Shown here one piece after another: positions 3,499 to 8,423 of a stretch of 64,000 nucleotides of DNA. Both the position numbers and the translations under genes were made by a program. Each line of letters begins with the position of its first letter. Within the stretch, counting starts at the first letter, position 1. The stretch comes from a virus. The stretch lies in IMG/VR virus record IMGVR_UViG_3300045988_149975. One strand, written 5' to 3'. The notes beneath the pieces were generated by a model, which ran no database searches, was not told the DNA's origin, and saw only the letters and a list, made by a program, of their open reading frames with translations.

Positions 3499-3915
3499 TT
3501 ATCTAACTAACAAACCATCTACAATAAGAGTATCAATAGGTGTAGATATTGCTTCTAAATTTTCTACCTTTTTAGACTGCCTTGATTGCACATCACTAAA
3601 AATCATTCTTAATTCCGTACCACCATAATTAAAAGTTACAGATTCAAAAACAACTACTTTATCACCTTTTTTAATTTTCTCTATATCCTTCCAACCTTCT
3701 TGCGTATAGACCTGTAACCCATCAAACACTTCAATTTGTGTCCCATTCTTATAATTAGTAAATAAAGTATGAACTCTGCCATTAAAGGTAGTCAATTCAA
3801 CAGTTAAATTTGTTGAAGTCTTACCTTTAGAGTCTACATAAAATACTTTGGCTTTAGAATAGGGGATTAAACCCCTATTCTTATCTAACAACTTAACCTG
3901 CGCAGGAATTTTCAC
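3499..3915 (-). CDS. hypothetical protein
   Basis: 138-aa ORF coupled to the upstream gene; no recognisable motif. Confidence 0.4.
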   Translation of the reverse strand: MKIPAQVKLLDKNRGLIPYSKAKVFYVDSKGKTSTNLTVELTTFNGRVHTLFTNYKNGTQIEVFDGLQVYTQEGWKDIEKIKKGDKVVVFESVTFNYGGTELRMIFSDVQSRQSKKVENLEAISTPIDTLIVDGLLVR

Positions 3916-5389
3916 AATTTGCCTCCAAGACTTCTCTTACAAAATTATAACGCTCTACATAAATGCAATCATAGATTGCTTTAAGAGGGTCATAAGTTTC
4001 ATTACTTGTCGCCGCTTTAATTGCAGCAGGTGAATAACCACTTACAAGCACTAAACCATTTTCATTCTCAATAACAGGAATTGTTCCACTTCTTGAAGCT
4101 ACGTTCCAAAAAATGAGTTTTGGTAATTTATAACCATAACCTCTATAAAGTTCGGAGATTGATTCAAGACTGTTTCCATAAGTACACTCATTAAATTCCA
4201 TATCACTAATGATAAGAATATTAGGAATATCCTCTTGTTTAAGTTTATTCCTTATAGCAGTATCTAATACAAGTTTAAATACAGCTTCAATATTCGTACT
4301 ACCGTTCCAATCCATTCTTTCTGTCATCCAAATATAAGCATCATAAACTGTTTTAAATCTACTTACATCTACATAAGTAGGCTTATCAGAGAATGTAACT
4401 ACTTTGCCTTTAAACTCATCCTTTGCACGTTGCGCAAAATATAAAGCTAATCCAACAGAGCAATCAATAGGCATTATATTATTACTGCCCCATGTCATAG
4501 AACCGCTTACATCAGCTACTACAAGAGTATTCTCTACACCCTCATAATCTTTTAAATTTTCCCAAAGACCTTGTGTAAGTCTTTTATCACTATTTCTTCT
4601 TACCATAGAGATAATCTCATGCGGATAAAGAGTAGAAGCATTAATTTTAGCTTTACCTTTAGAAAGACTATCAAGATACTCCTGTCTACGTTGCATATCC
4701 TTTCTCATAAAAAGTTCAGCATACTTCTTATTAGCTTTAGAAGGAACAGCTTCATAATCAATCTCATTATAAGTATTATTAGAGATATGCTGCTCCACAA
4801 TATCTAAATATTCTCTCATTTCAGACAAGGCTTTTCTGTACTCACCATTAGTCATTCCATAATAGCCAATAAACTCTCTTGCCAATTTACGAGATTTTTT
4901 ACCACTATTTATAGAAGGCATCCATTTAGCCAATAAACTAATGGATTTATCTTTCTGCATATTATCCCAATCTACCTCTAACTGCTTACAAAGAGTTTCT
5001 ATTAAACATTTTTTCAAGGGCGTTTCCATAAGTACAAAGAGGTCATCCCATCTACCTACTTCTACAATGTATTTAATAAAATGTTTAACAAGTTCAGGCT
5101 CTCTATTAGCTAATTCTTTAAGCATTTCCCTAAAAATACGTCTTTCACCTAAACCGCCACGCACATCACGCAGGAAAAACATATATCTATAAATAACTTC
5201 TTTATTGTGTTTCTTATCATTTAAAAGCTGTACAACCTGCGTATGAAGTAACTCATCAGACATATTTCTAATAGCAGGCAATGAGAAATTAAAATCAACT
5301 AATACATCTTTAGTAGTTGCATAACCCTTCATACCATTTTCAGTAAAAGAAACATTCATTTCATCCTCTAAACAATTAATAAAGATCAT
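3893..5389 (-). CDS. vWA-domain protein with DUF2828-like N-terminal region, possibly Ro60/TROVE-related
   Basis: MIDAS motif DVSGSM in the C-terminal vWA part. N-terminal FTENGMKGYATTKDVLVDFNF resembles the DUF2828/TROVE-type signature. The likely true start is M at 5389 (GGAGGA RBS 6 nt upstream), not the ORF-track start at 5452, which would overlap the tRNA-like element. Confidence 0.5.
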   Translation of the reverse strand: MIFINCLEDEMNVSFTENGMKGYATTKDVLVDFNFSLPAIRNMSDELLHTQVVQLLNDKKHNKEVIYRYMFFLRDVRGGLGERRIFREMLKELANREPELVKHFIKYIVEVGRWDDLFVLMETPLKKCLIETLCKQLEVDWDNMQKDKSISLLAKWMPSINSGKKSRKLAREFIGYYGMTNGEYRKALSEMREYLDIVEQHISNNTYNEIDYEAVPSKANKKYAELFMRKDMQRRQEYLDSLSKGKAKINASTLYPHEIISMVRRNSDKRLTQGLWENLKDYEGVENTLVVADVSGSMTWGSNNIMPIDCSVGLALYFAQRAKDEFKGKVVTFSDKPTYVDVSRFKTVYDAYIWMTERMDWNGSTNIEAVFKLVLDTAIRNKLKQEDIPNILIISDMEFNECTYGNSLESISELYRGYGYKLPKLIFWNVASRSGTIPVIENENGLVLVSGYSPAAIKAATSNETYDPLKAIYDCIYVERYNFVREVLEANCENSCAG

Positions 5390-5401
5390 TTCATATCCTC
5401 C

Positions 5402-5488
5402 TTCAATTAAATGGAACGCCCTGAAGGAATTGAACCTTTTGACTCCTTCCACCTGTTTAATGTCGCAAGATTAGAAGTCTTGTGGTGG
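5402..5488 (-). ncRNA. tRNA-like structured element (7-bp acceptor-like stem, canonical T-arm, Arg-UCU-like anticodon hairpin, no D-arm), directly 5' of the vWA gene
   Basis: Minus RNA ACGCCCU-GUU-CCACC-A-CAAGA(CUUCUAA)UCUUG-CGACAUUAAACA-GGUGG-AAGGAGUCA-AAAGG(UUCAAUU)CCUUC-AGGGCGU-U-CCA. The D-arm is replaced by a CCACC/GGUGG helix enclosing the anticodon-like hairpin. Confidence 0.5.
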
Positions 5489-5521
5489 AACAGGGCGTAT
5501 AAAATAAAAAACCTGCTCATT
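5489..5521 (-). terminator. rho-independent terminator ending the tRNA-cluster transcript
   Basis: Minus RNA CCUGCUC-UAAU-GAGCAGG followed by UUUUUUAUUUUAU. Confidence 0.7.
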
Positions 5522-5742
5522 AGAGCAGGCTATTTGTGGCGCAGTAGAAATAAATCAAATGACTTACCACTACTGCATTAAACAAGGTTTCCTAATAAAG
5601 TATTACAAATTACAAATTTGTTCTTTTCTTAATAAAATTTTGCTGTGAAACCTTTATAACCTGCAAGGTAGTTTTACCCTGTTCAAAAGTATGCAATTTT
5701 GTGAGAACCTTAATAAAATTTTGCTGTACTACCTTTATGTAT

Positions 5743-5771
5743 ATATTATAACACAAGTCATCTAATTTGTC
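5743..5771 (-). promoter_or_regulatory. sigma-A type promoter (TTGACA-N17-TATAAT)
   Basis: Minus strand TTGACAaattagatgacttgTGTTATAAT. Drives the roughly 240-nt ORF-free region that ends at the 5489-5521 terminator. Confidence 0.55.
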
Positions 5772-5785
5772 AAGTAAAATTTTTA

Positions 5786-6527: not shown

Positions 6528-6616
6528 GGTGGGCAGGGCAAGATTTTAACTTGCGATGTTTCTAACGTGGATGATTTACAGTCATCTGCCTTCGTACAAC
6601 TCGGCACACCTACCCA
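6528..6616 (-). tRNA. tRNA-Tyr(GUA), type II with long variable arm
   Basis: Acceptor GGGTAGG/CCTGCCC. Anticodon stem GATGA/TCATC with loop CTGTAAA. Variable arm about 15 nt. T-arm GCAAG-TTAAAAT-CTTGC. ACCA 3' end. Confidence 0.6.
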
Positions 6617-6782: not shown

Positions 6783-7247
6783 TTATCTAAAGGGAACTCT
6801 ATTTTCCATCTTCCTACATACTACCTTACTTGCCGAAAATCGTTCCCTTTCGTAACCTAATCTTCTATAATCACGAGCAGAATGTTTATTTCGTGATTTA
6901 TAAGTTGGTAATTGACTATCACAATTAGGACAAATTAAACGTAAATTATCTTTGAAATTATTTGTAGCATTACCATCAATATGGTCTAAAATAAAATTTA
7001 AGGTCTTGCCATTCCACTCATTGGAGATACCACAAATAGCACATTTCCCATCTTGTGAATCAAATATATAATCTCTTATAGCATTTCTTAATGTTGTAGC
7101 CACACCACAATTAGTATCCCCTGTTTTTAACCAGTTATTTATTAAATCATTTCTATTTTTATTAACCAAACATTTATGACATAAACCACTTATTGTCTTT
7201 TTAGACAACTTTATACCACAATTATTACAAAAAAATGGCATTATCAA
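6783..7247 (-). CDS. HNH endonuclease inserted within the tRNA array
   Basis: CxxC pairs plus LDHIDGNATNNFKDNLRLICPNCDSQ, an HNH/His-Me finger. Confidence 0.7.
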   Translation of the reverse strand: MIMPFFCNNCGIKLSKKTISGLCHKCLVNKNRNDLINNWLKTGDTNCGVATTLRNAIRDYIFDSQDGKCAICGISNEWNGKTLNFILDHIDGNATNNFKDNLRLICPNCDSQLPTYKSRNKHSARDYRRLGYERERFSASKVVCRKMENRVPFR

Positions 7248-7643: not shown

Positions 7644-8423
7644 TTACTTTTCTTTATTATTATTCCTTTTATACTCAAATGAAGTTTTAGCTACAAGACC
7701 GTACTTCTTTAAATACTTTTTTATACCATTATCTGATACACCATAAATCCTGCCCATTTCTCTCATACTTAAACCTTCATCAACAAGTTTTTTCAATTCT
7801 TCCCTTAAAATATTATCATCTTTTTTAAGAGTATTATTTTTTATAGTCTTATCTGCACTCCTCACAATACTTCTATTGAGAGAAGAACATTTAACGCTAC
7901 AAAAAATTTGTGTATGTTTCTTTGGAATAAATATTTTATGGCACATAGGACACTCAACACGTTTATCTTGTAATGATTGTAATACTTTTACGCCATCTCT
8001 TTTTGTACGCTCGGTATAAGTTACTTTATAACCTCTACCGCTAACTTTTCCCGATTTAACATTTCTTCCTCTATAATTTTCAGTTAACGAATGACAATTA
8101 GGACAAATTAAACGTAAATTACTTTCACTGTGGTTTAATGGGTTTCCATCTATATGGTCAATCTCCAATGGTACGTTTCCAGTGTAAGGATTAACCTCTC
8201 CCCAACCACATATAGAACACTTACCATCATTTAATTCAAATAGATACCTTCTAATATAACCTGAAACTTCTCCCCAATTTCCTTGACCACCATCAACTAA
8301 ACCTTGTTTCCATTTAGATATATAATCTAAATAACGTGACCTCATACTACACTTTTTACTACAATATATGTTACGATATTGTGTAATCTCTTTTCCGCAA
8401 ATTGGACATTTTCTTTTTTCCAT
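7644..8423 (-). CDS. HNH endonuclease with C-terminal helix-turn-helix-like region
   Basis: EIDHIDGNPLNHSESNLRLICPNCHSL. Zn-ribbon-like CPICGK...CSKKC at the N-terminus. C-terminal LSMREMGRIYGVSDNGIKKYLKKYG. Confidence 0.7.
   Translation of the reverse strand: MEKRKCPICGKEITQYRNIYCSKKCSMRSRYLDYISKWKQGLVDGGQGNWGEVSGYIRRYLFELNDGKCSICGWGEVNPYTGNVPLEIDHIDGNPLNHSESNLRLICPNCHSLTENYRGRNVKSGKVSGRGYKVTYTERTKRDGVKVLQSLQDKRVECPMCHKIFIPKKHTQIFCSVKCSSLNRSIVRSADKTIKNNTLKKDDNILREELKKLVDEGLSMREMGRIYGVSDNGIKKYLKKYGLVAKTSFEYKRNNNKEK

What the first reader, a model, noticed from the sequence alone, without database searches (positions are those of the whole stretch)
5402..5488. Non-canonical tRNA-like RNA directly upstream of the vWA/Ro60-like gene (Y-RNA-like candidate)
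An 87-nt element has a perfect 7-bp acceptor-like stem (ACGCCCU/AGGGCGU), a discriminator plus CCA, a canonical T-arm (GGUUCAAUUCC) and an anticodon-like hairpin (loop CUUCUAA, UCU). It lacks a D-arm. Instead a 5-bp CCACC/GGUGG helix brackets the anticodon hairpin and a 12-nt bulge. It sits after a strong terminator (5489-5521) and ends 8 nt before the RBS of the vWA gene. Bacterial Y RNAs (YrlA) that bind Ro60 are tRNA mimics encoded next to rsr. Alternatively this is an RNase P processing handle for the downstream mRNA, or a divergent tRNA-Arg.
Basis: partly seen in the sequence, partly recalled or inferred. Interest (0 to 1): 0.65.

Follow-up and report, generated by a model that had tools for sequence, protein, structure and literature searches.

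The report
Rearranged phage arginine tRNA without D-arm
The 87-nt element is most likely a phage arginine tRNA (anticodon UCU) with a rearranged core instead of the usual D-arm hairpin; it belongs to a widespread family in phages that tRNA finders and the genome annotations I inspected miss.

Summary
The element is real but lies on the minus strand at 5412-5498, 10 nt from the stated coordinates. It is neither a chance fold nor a Y RNA. It belongs to a family of at least 37 distinct sequences in phage contigs. BLAST also matches about 340 GenBank phage records; the four I checked with the model are members, and none is annotated as a tRNA.

All members share one architecture:
- an 8-bp acceptor stem and a 4-bp T stem;
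- no D hairpin;
- a 5-bp long-range helix between the strand before the anticodon arm and a strand inside the enlarged variable region, followed by a conserved GG-A motif;
- a 3-bp clamp that crosses this helix, making a pseudoknot.

Covariation is strong: 97% of cells are paired and 22 of 25 pairs carry compensatory changes. Members sit inside phage tRNA arrays that show no canonical tRNA-Arg(UCU). In relatives of this phage the same slot upstream of the Ro60-like gene holds a canonical tRNA-Arg(UCU). AGA is this phage's commonest arginine codon.

The neighbouring gene is Ro60-like by fold, but a close relative keeps that gene without the element. Best reading: a functional, structurally rearranged tRNA-Arg(UCU). 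Charging and decoding are untested.

The parts
5412..5498 (-). Whole non-canonical tRNA-Arg(UCU)-like gene, 87 nt including the encoded CCA. RNA position n corresponds to window coordinate 5499-n.
   Evidence: Sequence. Family model R1 scores it 94.6 bits, though it is a seed member. Identical in L001 and L002.
5491..5498 (-). Acceptor stem 5' strand, nt 1-8 (ACGCCCUG). Pairs with nt 76-83.
   Evidence: 8 of 8 positions paired in all 30 sequences. All 8 pairs show compensatory change across 38 sequences. The eighth pair is GC 34, AU 2, UG 1.
5484..5488 (-). Helix H 5' strand, nt 11-15 (CCACC). It runs directly into A16 and the anticodon stem, so it occupies the place of the D-stem 3' strand (22-25) of a normal tRNA. 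In this window UU (9-10) can extend H to 7 bp.
   Evidence: Covariation: 3 of 5 pairs compensatory in A3 and 4 of 5 in A5.
5466..5482 (-). Anticodon arm, nt 17-33: stem CAAGA/UCUUG and loop CUUCUAA. The anticodon UCU is nt 24-26 (window 5475-5473).
   Evidence: All 5 stem pairs are compensatory. The loop is identical to that of the canonical tRNA-Arg(UCU) in the syntenic slot of L151.
5462..5464 (-). Clamp V 5' strand, nt 35-37 (GAC). Pairs with nt 56-58 and crosses helix H, forming a pseudoknot.
   Evidence: 100% paired in A3 with 2 of 3 pairs compensatory. V was not part of the model, yet in A5 the middle pair reads CG 10, AU 9, GC 8, UA 8 with none unpaired.
5454..5461 (-). A/U-rich conserved linker, nt 38-45 (AUUAAACA).
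   Evidence: T39, A41 and A42 are invariant or nearly invariant in A3. Its role is unknown.
5449..5453 (-). Helix H 3' strand, nt 46-50 (GGUGG), lying inside the enlarged variable region. I read it as the equivalent of the D-stem 5' strand (10-13).
5444..5448 (-). AAGGA, nt 51-55. The conserved A-(A/U)-G-G-A motif is proposed to stand in for D-loop A14...G18 G19 A20.
   Evidence: GGA is invariant in 19 of 19 sequences, and GG is kept in nearly all of the 38. The canonical L151 tRNA-Arg has D-loop A-GUUGGAU-A. The tertiary role is inferred.
5441..5443 (-). Clamp V 3' strand, nt 56-58 (GUC).
5424..5438 (-). T arm, nt 61-75: 4-bp stem AAGG/CCUU and loop UUCAAUU.
   Evidence: The loop was fixed by my search patterns, but UUCGAUU variants occur in Av-05, 1M3-16 and D260.
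5412..5423 (-). Acceptor 3' strand, nt 76-83 (CAGGGCGU), discriminator U84 and encoded CCA (85-87).
   Evidence: NCCA is encoded in 22 of 30 family sequences.
5500..5531 (-). Context: intrinsic terminator (stem-loop 5531-5510 plus T-run) of the upstream ~230-nt RNA. It ends 2 nt before the element.
   Evidence: Conserved in L001, L002 and L148.
3893..5389 (-). Context, not part of the element: downstream Ro60-like gene (DUF2828 + DUF7788/vWA, 498 aa). RBS GGAGG at 5401-5397.
   Evidence: Pfam. AlphaFold2 model with pLDDT 90. The top 7 PDB fold matches are all TROVE/Ro60.

Best explanation
The element is a phage tRNA gene for arginine (anticodon UCU, reading AGA and probably AGG) whose core has been rearranged.

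The acceptor/T coaxial stack is kept at 12 bp but divided 8/4. The D hairpin is gone. Instead, the strand just 5' of the anticodon stem (nt 11-15) pairs with a strand in an enlarged variable region (nt 46-50). This makes a 5-bp helix that stacks on the anticodon stem where a D-stem would be. That strand is followed by A-(A/U)-G-G-A. I read this motif as the D-loop's A14...G18 G19 A20 delivered from the other side, where it could contact the T-loop at the elbow and offer A20 to arginyl-tRNA synthetase. A 3-bp clamp (GAC/GUC) closes the insertion and crosses the long-range helix, so the fold is a pseudoknot.

In effect, segment 8-21 of a normal tRNA has been moved into the variable loop.

The RNA would be made with the tRNA array or by read-through of the upstream terminator, cut by RNase P at A1, and trimmed to its encoded CCA. 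It would then be charged with arginine and used on the phage's abundant AGA codons.

Shown: the conserved secondary structure, the genomic context and the synteny. Inferred: the L-shaped tertiary fold, processing, charging and decoding.
For: 1. Family. Two pattern scans of viral contigs recovered homologues with the same layout from many metagenomes and from contigs of 4-424 kb. The covariance model scores members 49-99 bits and ordinary tRNAs 21 bits or less.

2. Covariation. In 19 sequences, 97.9% of cells are paired and 19 of 25 pairs are compensatory. In 38 sequences, 97.2% and 22 of 25. In both, 0 of 500 shuffles reach the observed values, and slid controls pair 39-49% of cells. Helix H, clamp V (which was not in the model) and the eighth acceptor pair all covary.

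3. tRNA context. Members lie in phage tRNA arrays, on the same strand and with tRNA spacing. Examples are L015 (Lys-[x]-Gln), L099 (Cys-[x]-Arg(ACG), in a 20-tRNA set), L114 and Av-05. ARAGORN called no canonical tRNA-Arg(UCU) in the part of any array I hold. In Vibrio phage D260, ARAGORN finds 17 canonical tRNAs in the 35-kb tRNA region I fetched, none of them Arg, plus this element.

4. Synteny. In relatives whose Ro60-like protein is 48-50% identical, the slot immediately upstream of that gene holds a canonical tRNA-Arg(UCU) with the same anticodon loop, CUUCUAA.

5. Anticodons. A scan that did not fix the anticodon found only UCU and one CCU, both arginine AGR decoders.

6. Demand. The window has 31% GC. 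AGA makes up 45% and AGG 23% of Arg codons, and there is no other tRNA-Arg in the 64 kb.

7. Feasibility. [quoted passage not shown] Natural 8/4 tRNAs exist in phages (PMC5389517).
Against: - I have no expression, processing, charging or decoding data.
- The tertiary fold is argued from sequence order only.
- The discriminator varies (U, A or G), whereas E. coli tRNA-Arg has A or G at position 73 (my own knowledge).
- One member has C at position 33 (L135), and one has GGU instead of GGA plus a degenerate T-loop (phiAB441).
- In the window the gene starts 2 nt after a strong terminator's T-run and has no promoter of its own in the scan, so expression depends on read-through.
- PNPase degraded the artificial D-arm-less tRNA in E. 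coli, so stability in the host is not assured.
- My search patterns fixed the anticodon loop or the GGA motif together with the T-loop, so the apparent restriction to arginine is partly built into the search.
Confidence: 0.74

Rival explanations
1. It is a non-decoding tRNA mimic used against host defence. It would act as a decoy or sponge for tRNA-Arg-directed nucleases or other tRNA-targeting immunity, or as a nuclease-resistant substitute whose main value is evasion rather than codon supply.
For: The fold looks restricted to phages. The same motif pattern gave 43 family members among 49 viral hits, and none among the 120 stretches returned from cellular genomes. It is concentrated on arginine tRNAs: UCU, CCU and divergent ACG types. 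Phage tRNAs are known to rescue infection from tRNA-cleaving systems such as PARIS and retron effectors (abstracts of PMC11464382 and PMC11555353).
Against: No defence system is linked to it here. The invariant canonical anticodon loop, NCCA end, 12-bp acceptor/T stack, array position and replacement of the canonical tRNA-Arg(UCU) all fit a working decoder. The 'resistant but functional' version of this idea is compatible with the best explanation rather than a rival to it.
Confidence: 0.12
2. It is a Y-RNA-like ligand of the adjacent Ro60-like protein. A tRNA mimic would be bound by the TROVE ring to recruit or regulate a nuclease.
For: The neighbour is Ro60-like by fold. YrlA-like RNAs lie beside homologous genes in Enterococcus phage 163 and mycobacteriophage JoeDirt. 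The element abuts the gene in the window lineage and again in the independent locus L088.
Against: There is no match to YrlA or Y_RNA. Its topology is unlike YrlA's. About 32 of 34 family loci have no such gene nearby. L148 keeps the gene, promoter, leader RNA and terminator without the element. Relatives have an ordinary tRNA-Arg(UCU) in the same slot.
Confidence: 0.05
3. It is a cis-acting RNase P/RNase Z processing handle that defines the 5' end of the downstream Ro60-like mRNA after read-through of the terminator.
For: It lies between a terminator and the RBS, 10 nt from GGAGG.
Against: L148 expresses the same gene arrangement without it. Most family members lie inside tRNA arrays and are followed by other tRNAs, not by an mRNA. 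Conservation of the anticodon loop and of the H and V helices is not needed for a processing handle.
Confidence: 0.04
4. It is a decaying tRNA-Arg pseudogene that lost its D-arm.
For: tRNA finders reject it. GenBank records leave homologues unannotated.
Against: Every helix, including the two non-canonical ones, is maintained by compensatory changes across dozens of divergent phages. The element is 100% identical between contigs whose neighbouring protein is only 78% identical.
Confidence: 0.02

Closest known systems
Canonical bacterial/phage tRNA-Arg(UCU), e.g. the gene in the syntenic slot of relative L151 (2907-2983)
   Same: Identical anticodon loop CUUCUAA. A similar acceptor sequence; from memory, E. 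coli argU starts GCGCCCU. A T-loop of the GUUCRAxUC type and an encoded CCA. A GGA motif like the D-loop's G18 G19 A20. The same position at the end of the tRNA array next to the Ro60-like gene, and the same expected codon.
   Different: There is no D hairpin. The strand order of the D-stem equivalent is reversed: the 3'-type strand comes first and the 5'-type strand plus the GG-A loop come after the anticodon arm. The acceptor/T partition is 8/4 instead of 7/5. The variable region is 27 nt long, with a clamp stem and a pseudoknot.
8/4 and 9/3 tRNAs (allo-tRNAs; 8/4 tRNA-Ser and tRNA-His of bacteria and phages), Mukai et al. 2017, PMC5389517
   Same: A 12-bp acceptor branch split 8/4. Occurrence in phage tRNA clusters. 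A long variable region. Overlooked by standard finders.
   Different: Those tRNAs keep a D stem-loop (a long stem with a tetraloop) and an ordinary nested cloverleaf. They carry Ser, His, Cys or Sec-like identities. No Arg(UCU) and no long-range D-stem or pseudoknot are described.
D-arm-less tRNAs: metazoan mitochondrial tRNA-Ser(AGY/UCU) and the artificial E. coli 'mini HisT' (PMC7609411, PMC11551756)
   Same: No D hairpin, and a short connector between the acceptor and anticodon stems. They show that translation can use such adaptors.
   Different: Those RNAs simply lack the D region, have short variable regions and are thought to adopt flexible Y- or boomerang-like shapes. Here a D-stem equivalent and a GG motif are rebuilt from the variable region, so an L-shape with a normal elbow is plausible. 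The host system is also different: bacterial cytosol and phage, not mitochondria.
YrlA (bacterial Y RNA, Rfam RF02553)
   Same: A tRNA-related fold with a canonical T-loop, and a location next to a Ro60-type gene in this window.
   Different: YrlA has a D-arm, a closed acceptor-like hairpin, no anticodon arm, and its ends lie in a Ro-binding stem. This element has free acceptor ends with CCA, an anticodon arm and no D-arm. It does not match the model.

Membership tests
tRNA (functional class; Rfam RF00005 / ARAGORN definition) | Acceptor stem closed by the 5' and 3' ends, with a discriminator and 3' CCA | tested here: met
   8-bp stem followed by U and CCA. NCCA is encoded in 22 of 30 relatives.
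tRNA (functional class; Rfam RF00005 / ARAGORN definition) | T arm with a GUUCRAnYC-type 7-nt loop, stacked on the acceptor stem to give 12 bp | tested here: met
   GGUUCAAUUCC. The split is 8 + 4 = 12 bp instead of 7 + 5.
tRNA (functional class; Rfam RF00005 / ARAGORN definition) | 5-bp anticodon stem and 7-nt loop with U33 and a purine at position 37 | tested here: met
   CAAGA-CUUCUAA-UCUUG. All five pairs covary.
tRNA (functional class; Rfam RF00005 / ARAGORN definition) | D stem-loop hairpin between the acceptor and anticodon arms, and a detector score above threshold | tested here: not met
   Only 8 nt separate the two stems. ARAGORN makes no call in standard, relaxed or mitochondrial modes. 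Rfam tRNA is below its gathering score. A D-stem equivalent and a GG-A motif exist but in a non-nested arrangement.
tRNA (functional class; Rfam RF00005 / ARAGORN definition) | Aminoacylation and decoding on the ribosome | not testable with these tools
   Indirect support only: array position, syntenic replacement of the canonical tRNA-Arg(UCU), and codon demand.
YrlA / Y RNA (Rfam RF02553, RF00019) | Match to the covariance model | tested here: not met
   No hit at gathering score or at E<=10 on 161-4001-nt sub-windows. The same search detects YrlA-like RNAs at 30-48 bits in other phages.
YrlA / Y RNA (Rfam RF02553, RF00019) | Ends paired in a Ro-binding stem that encloses a T-arm, a closed acceptor-like hairpin and a D-arm, with no anticodon arm | tested here: not met
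   The topology is the opposite one.
YrlA / Y RNA (Rfam RF02553, RF00019) | Encoded next to a Ro60 orthologue | tested here: inconclusive
   True in the window lineage and in L088, where the neighbour is Ro60-like by fold. False for about 32 of 34 family loci. The gene also persists without the element in L148.
YrlA / Y RNA (Rfam RF02553, RF00019) | Binding by Ro60 | not testable with these tools
   Would need CLIP or pull-down.
8/4 tRNAs (Mukai et al. 2017) | 8-bp acceptor stem and 4-bp T stem | tested here: met
   The N8-N65 pair is present in 37 of 38 sequences and covaries (GC, AU, UG). The alternative fifth T-stem pair would be an A.C mismatch.
8/4 tRNAs (Mukai et al. 2017) | Nested cloverleaf with a D stem-loop and a long V-arm hairpin; Ser, His, Cys or Sec-like identity | tested here: not met
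   There is no D hairpin, the V stem crosses helix H, and the anticodon is an arginine one.
tRNA-Sec (Rfam RF01852) | Score at or above the gathering cut-off; UCA anticodon; 6-bp D stem | tested here: not met
   24.8 bits against 47. The D arm is deleted in the alignment and the anticodon is UCU.
Mitochondrial-type D-arm-less tRNA | D arm replaced by an unpaired connector, with a short variable region | tested here: not met
   The connector strand is base-paired to the variable region, with covariation, and the variable region is 27 nt long. ARAGORN -mt makes no call.
The family defined here (model R1: D-hairpin-less, pseudoknotted 8/4 phage tRNA-Arg) | All five helices (acceptor 8, H 5, anticodon 5, V 3, T 4) plus the GG-A motif after the H 3' strand | tested here: met
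   The window sequence forms every pair and has AAGGA. It is a seed member, so its 94.6-bit score is not independent. Independence comes from relatives found by pattern search.

The most novel reading that the evidence does not exclude
This is a translationally active tRNA architecture found in phages but not, so far, in cells. The D-stem strand and D-loop have been moved into the variable loop, giving a pseudoknotted 8/4 tRNA. On this reading it evolved, mainly for arginine AGR decoders, because the rearranged core escapes host factors that read the D-arm or elbow, such as tRNA-targeting immune nucleases or quality control, while still satisfying ArgRS, EF-Tu and the ribosome. A bolder corollary is that the adjacent Ro60-like protein shields such odd tRNAs from PNPase-type surveillance.
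Probability: 0.22. Interest if true: 0.92.

Novelty: new variant of a known kind. Interest (0 to 1): 0.8.

Why it matters
[quoted passage not shown] If these RNAs are charged and used, they are a natural counter-example from the bacterial world. The tRNA core would be rebuilt with a different strand topology, and this would be common in phages, including culturable phages of E. coli, Vibrio and Acinetobacter.

Three things would follow:
- Phage tRNA repertoires are under-counted, because arginine decoders are missed by standard annotation. This affects codon-usage and host-adaptation analyses.
- It would give a natural test of which tertiary contacts ArgRS, RNase P, EF-Tu, modification enzymes and the ribosome really need.
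- It would offer a new scaffold for orthogonal tRNA engineering, and a candidate way for phages to evade tRNA-targeting defence.

The question is directly testable in culturable phages such as Escherichia phage Av-05 and the Vibrio phages.

Tried and rejected
- ARAGORN, in standard mode, with lowered thresholds and in metazoan-mitochondrial D-armless modes: no call.
- Rfam at gathering score and at E<=10 on nested sub-windows: only a weak tRNA-Sec match, plus terminator look-alikes upstream. No YrlA or Y_RNA.
- BLAST of the element against GenBank phages: one spurious hit. Only after family members were in hand did BLAST with relatives find cultured carriers.
- Close relatives found through the protein (L001, L002): the element is 100% identical, so they give no covariation.
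- MAFFT alignments of untrimmed or mixed-length sets put subgroups out of register. I solved this with anchor-based decomposition, a same-length subset and a model-based alignment.
- The first viral pattern scan was about two-thirds false positives. These were ordinary tRNAs, mainly tRNA-Ile(GAU), whose D-arm reads CUUCUAAUGG, and I set them aside.
- The alternative that the GAC...GUC stem alone makes an ordinary variable-arm hairpin, as in the tRNA-Sec alignment, leaves CCACC unpaired and ignores the covariation of helix H.
- The genome-collection scan returned 120 stretches, none of them a family member.
- A sequence search of the Ro60-like protein against the PDB found nothing. The relationship appears only at the fold level.
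- Seven full-text literature searches found no description of this fold. Papers outside the library cannot be excluded.
- Pseudogene, mRNA-processing handle and Y-RNA readings were considered and rejected, as set out under the rival explanations.
Full report
OBSERVATION

The element exists, but on the minus strand at window 5498->5412. The finding's 5402-5488 is shifted by 10 nt, and so is the terminator it mentions.

The RNA reads ACGCCCUGUUCCACCACAAGACUUCUAAUCUUGCGACAUUAAACAGGUGGAAGGAGUCAAAAGGUUCAAUUCCUUCAGGGCGUUCCA. All the listed features are present: the acceptor pairing, U plus CCA, the T-loop GGUUCAAUUCC, the anticodon hairpin with loop CUUCUAA, no D hairpin, and the CCACC/GGUGG helix.

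Standard detectors reject it. ARAGORN finds eight tRNAs nearby but not this one, even with relaxed or mitochondrial settings. Rfam finds nine tRNAs in the window and gives this element only a sub-threshold tRNA-Sec match, 24.8 bits against a cut-off of 47. The single-sequence fold is moderately better than shuffles, with z = -2.55.

SURROUNDINGS

The window comes from a 31%-GC phage-like region in which nearly all genes are on the minus strand. The element is the last unit of a tRNA array (Leu, Ile, Ser, Tyr, Asp, Glu, Trp, Thr, Pro).

Between tRNA-Pro and the element lie a perfect sigma70 promoter (5773-5745), a structured non-coding stretch of about 230 nt, and a strong intrinsic terminator (5531-5510) whose T-run ends 2 nt before the element.

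Ten nucleotides after the CCA comes the RBS of a 498-aa DUF2828 + DUF7788/vWA protein. That protein has no sequence match in the PDB. A confident AlphaFold2 model (pLDDT 90) nevertheless matches TROVE/Ro60 structures over its full length, as its top seven hits (E 4e-7 to 6e-5, TM about 0.5).

A FAMILY, NOT A ONE-OFF

Close relatives found through the protein (97% and 78% identity) carry a 100% identical element, which gives no covariation.

I then scanned the viral contigs with a degenerate pattern: the UCU anticodon loop, a 28-40-nt spacer, and the T-loop. Among false positives this returned about 27 distinct homologues from unrelated metagenomes. A second scan that did not fix the anticodon (GGA[A/U]GGA, 7-9 nt, T-loop) returned 49 hits, of which 43 are family members.

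A covariance model built from 19 members scores the family at 49-99 bits and ordinary tRNAs at 21 bits or less.

BLAST with family members then found cultured carriers. The model confirmed four:
- Escherichia phage Av-05 (77 bits, inside its tRNA array);
- Acinetobacter phage phiAB441 (78 bits);
- Nitrincola phage 1M3-16 (49 bits, 6 nt before tRNA-Met);
- Vibrio phage D260 (81 bits).

The Av-05 element matches 340 GenBank phage records, mostly Vibrio and Acinetobacter phages. In the rows I saw, the annotation under the match is 'none' or 'hypothetical protein', never a tRNA.

The same motif pattern returned 120 stretches from one-genome-per-species bacterial and archaeal genomes, and none is a family member.

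STRUCTURE

An anchor-based decomposition of 30 sequences, and pair counts on two alignments, give one shared architecture:
- 8-bp acceptor stem (N8 pairs with N65);
- 2-nt linker;
- 5-nt strand H5', running directly into one nucleotide ('26') and the 5-bp anticodon stem;
- loop CUUCUAA;
- one nucleotide;
- 3-nt V5';
- an A/U-rich 8-nt stretch;
- strand H3';
- A-(A/U)-G-G-A(-N);
- V3';
- 2 nt;
- 4-bp T stem and T-loop;
- acceptor 3' strand, N73, and usually CCA.

H pairs across the anticodon arm. V pairs across H3', so H and V cross and form a pseudoknot.

On 19 same-length sequences, 97.9% of cells are paired and 19 of 25 pairs carry compensatory changes. The covariation score is 0.73, against 0.22 in shuffles (0 of 500 reach it) and 0.05-0.14 with slid partners.

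On a model-based alignment of 38 sequences, 97.2% of cells are paired and 22 of 25 pairs are compensatory. That alignment leans towards the modelled helices. V was not in the model, however, and its middle pair still reads CG 10, AU 9, GC 8, UA 8 with no unpaired cell.

The eighth acceptor pair covaries (GC, AU, UG). The alternative fifth T-stem pair would be an A.C mismatch, so the 8/4 partition is supported.

STRUCTURAL READING (INFERENCE)

In a normal tRNA the D-stem 3' strand (22-25) is the one continuous with position 26 and the anticodon stem. The D-stem 5' strand (10-13) is followed by A14 ... G18 G19 (A20).

Here the strand continuous with the anticodon stem comes straight from the acceptor stem. 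Its partner, followed by A-x-G-G-A, is supplied from the variable region. In other words, segment 8-21 appears to have been moved into the variable loop and clamped by V.

Three points fit this reading:
- The helical stack (5 + 1 + 5 layers) is close in length to the canonical anticodon plus D stack.
- GG is available for the elbow contact with the T-loop.
- The A after GG corresponds to A20, which I recall as a major ArgRS identity element. The canonical relative in L151 has D-loop A-GUUGGAU-A.

This tertiary model is untested.

WHAT IT IS

Several independent lines point to a working tRNA-Arg(UCU).

1. Members sit in tRNA arrays with tRNA spacing. In the loci I hold, those arrays show no canonical tRNA-Arg(UCU). 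L099 has 20 canonical tRNAs plus this element next to tRNA-Arg(ACG). In D260, ARAGORN finds 17 canonical tRNAs in the 35-kb tRNA region I fetched, none of them for arginine. D260 also has this element, plus a second D-hairpin-less element with anticodon ACG in an unannotated tRNA-sized gap.

2. In relatives whose Ro60-like protein is 48-50% identical, the slot immediately upstream of that gene holds a canonical tRNA-Arg(UCU) (L149, L150, L151). In L151 it ends 17 nt before the start codon and has the same anticodon loop.

3. The anticodon-agnostic scan found only UCU and one CCU. Cousins with the same H/V layout but anticodon GUA (Tyr) exist in L069 and L032. More divergent D-less UCU and ACG types also exist, including one in Felixounaviruses and other enterobacterial phages (263 GenBank records, mostly unannotated).

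4. AGA makes up 45% and AGG 23% of arginine codons in the window's genes, and the 64 kb holds no other tRNA-Arg.

5. [quoted passage not shown] It also shows that 8/4 tRNAs occur naturally in phages (PMC5389517).

WHY NOT A Y RNA OR A PROCESSING HANDLE

YrlA has the opposite topology, with closed acceptor hairpin, D-arm, no anticodon arm, and its ends in a Ro-binding stem. It does not match here at any threshold. The same search does pick up YrlA-like RNAs beside homologous genes in Enterococcus phage 163 and mycobacteriophage JoeDirt.

Only the window lineage and L088 have the Ro60-like gene next to the element.

The relative L148 (protein 73% identical) keeps the promoter, the ~230-nt RNA, the terminator and the gene, but its T-run leads straight into the RBS. 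The element is therefore a clean presence/absence difference, and the gene does not need it.

Ro60-like genes are generally found beside phage tRNA arrays. Adjacency to one member of an array is therefore expected.

COMPARISON WITH KNOWN KINDS, AND NOVELTY

The element works like a tRNA-Arg(UCU). By standard detectors it fails membership of the canonical tRNA family, because it has no D hairpin.

It shares the 8/4 branch with the tRNAs of Mukai et al., but those keep a nested cloverleaf with a D stem-loop and have other identities.

It shares the loss of the D hairpin with mitochondrial tRNA-Ser and with mini HisT, but those do not rebuild a D-stem from the variable region.

Seven full-text searches found no description of this fold. 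A 2024 paper states that all known bacterial tRNAs are canonical cloverleaves. I cannot exclude a description outside the searchable library.

I rate the element a new variant of a known kind. It is of high interest because it is common, present in culturable phages, missed by annotation, and directly testable.

VERDICT

- That it is a conserved, structured tRNA-Arg-lineage gene with a rearranged, pseudoknotted core: about 0.95.
- That it is charged with arginine and decodes AGA/AGG: about 0.74.
- Remaining weight: a mainly defence-related mimic (0.12), a Ro60 ligand (0.05), a processing handle (0.04), a pseudogene (0.02).

Two things remain unexplained: why the fold is concentrated on arginine tRNAs and on phages, and how the window copy is transcribed just behind a strong terminator.

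Noticed in passing
window 5500-5773 (minus strand): There is a perfect 12/12 sigma70 promoter with TG (5773-5745). It is followed by a non-coding RNA of about 230 nt with three hairpins, two of whose loops begin ACAGCAA, and by a strong intrinsic terminator (5531-5510). Stems are kept and loop interiors diverge in relative L148, with one G-C to A-U compensatory change. The RNA stays upstream of the Ro60-like gene even where the tRNA-like element is absent. It has no Rfam match. It is a better candidate than the tRNA-like RNA for a leader/attenuator or partner RNA of the Ro60-like protein.
   Followed up: partly
window 3893-5389 (minus strand): The DUF2828 + DUF7788 protein is Ro60 (TROVE + vWA)-like by predicted fold, although it has no sequence-level PDB match. 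Homologues occur in 709 GenBank phage records and usually lie beside tRNA arrays, often next to a tRNA-Arg gene.
   Followed up: partly
L008 (Enterococcus phage 163) 202-302, 1410-1517, 1588-1701; L009 (mycobacteriophage JoeDirt) 3535-3643; L007 (Listeria phage cka15) 461-1012: Sub-threshold YrlA (bacterial Y RNA) matches of 30-48 bits (cut-off 69) lie beside Ro60-like gene homologues in two unrelated phages. Their tRNA-like module is conserved but the Ro-binding stem is not. A near-threshold ROOL RNA (90 bits, cut-off 99) lies in the Listeria phage tRNA region, under small annotated 'hypothetical' CDSs.
   Followed up: partly
window 6530-6615 (minus strand): A class II tRNA-Tyr(GUA) is found by Rfam (46 bits) but missed by ARAGORN. 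Its T-loop is UUAAAAU, with A where C56 is expected, and its D-loop has no GG. This may be a co-varying change at the elbow.
   Followed up: partly
L273 (Vibrio phage D260) 16333-16412; also L109 1176-1254 and L032 2892-2968: This is a second kind of D-hairpin-less tRNA-like gene, with anticodon ACG (Arg), a 7/5 acceptor/T partition and an enlarged variable region (in D260 with a small hairpin). In D260 it fills an unannotated tRNA-sized gap between tRNA-Leu and tRNA-Pro. Its structure was not analysed for covariation.
   Followed up: no
L010 (Escherichia phage adrianh, Felixounavirus) 5199-5277: This is a divergent D-hairpin-less UCU element: 32 bits with the family model and 31.7 bits with Rfam tRNA, just above that model's cut-off. 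It is conserved in 263 GenBank records (Felixounavirus, rV5-like, jumbo and Klebsiella phages). It is mostly unannotated, and sometimes labelled 'tRNA-OTHER', 'tRNA-Leu' or covered by a hypothetical CDS. Membership of the same fold is not established.
   Followed up: partly
L069 11388-11475; L032 3994-4082: These elements have the same long-range helix, clamp and GG layout but anticodon GUA (Tyr). The rearranged fold is therefore not strictly limited to arginine tRNAs.
   Followed up: partly
window 6783-7247 and 7644-8423 (minus strand): HNH-endonuclease-like ORFs are interspersed within the tRNA array. The array's tRNA content differs between close relatives (L001, L002, L148), which suggests frequent gain and loss of tRNA genes.
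   Followed up: no
L148 2160-2700: Three repeats of a structured unit of about 170 nt (a GAGGGUAUAGCCCUC-type hairpin followed by a CCUAUGA.GUAAGC... hairpin and ...CUUACAAAA) lie between the tRNA array and the promoter of the ~230-nt RNA. They were not seen at the corresponding place in the window.
   Followed up: no
window 5387-5394 (minus strand): A two-codon mini-ORF (ATG AAA TGA) overlaps the start codon of the Ro60-like gene (ATGAAATGATC). It is absent in relative L002, so it is probably incidental.
   Followed up: no
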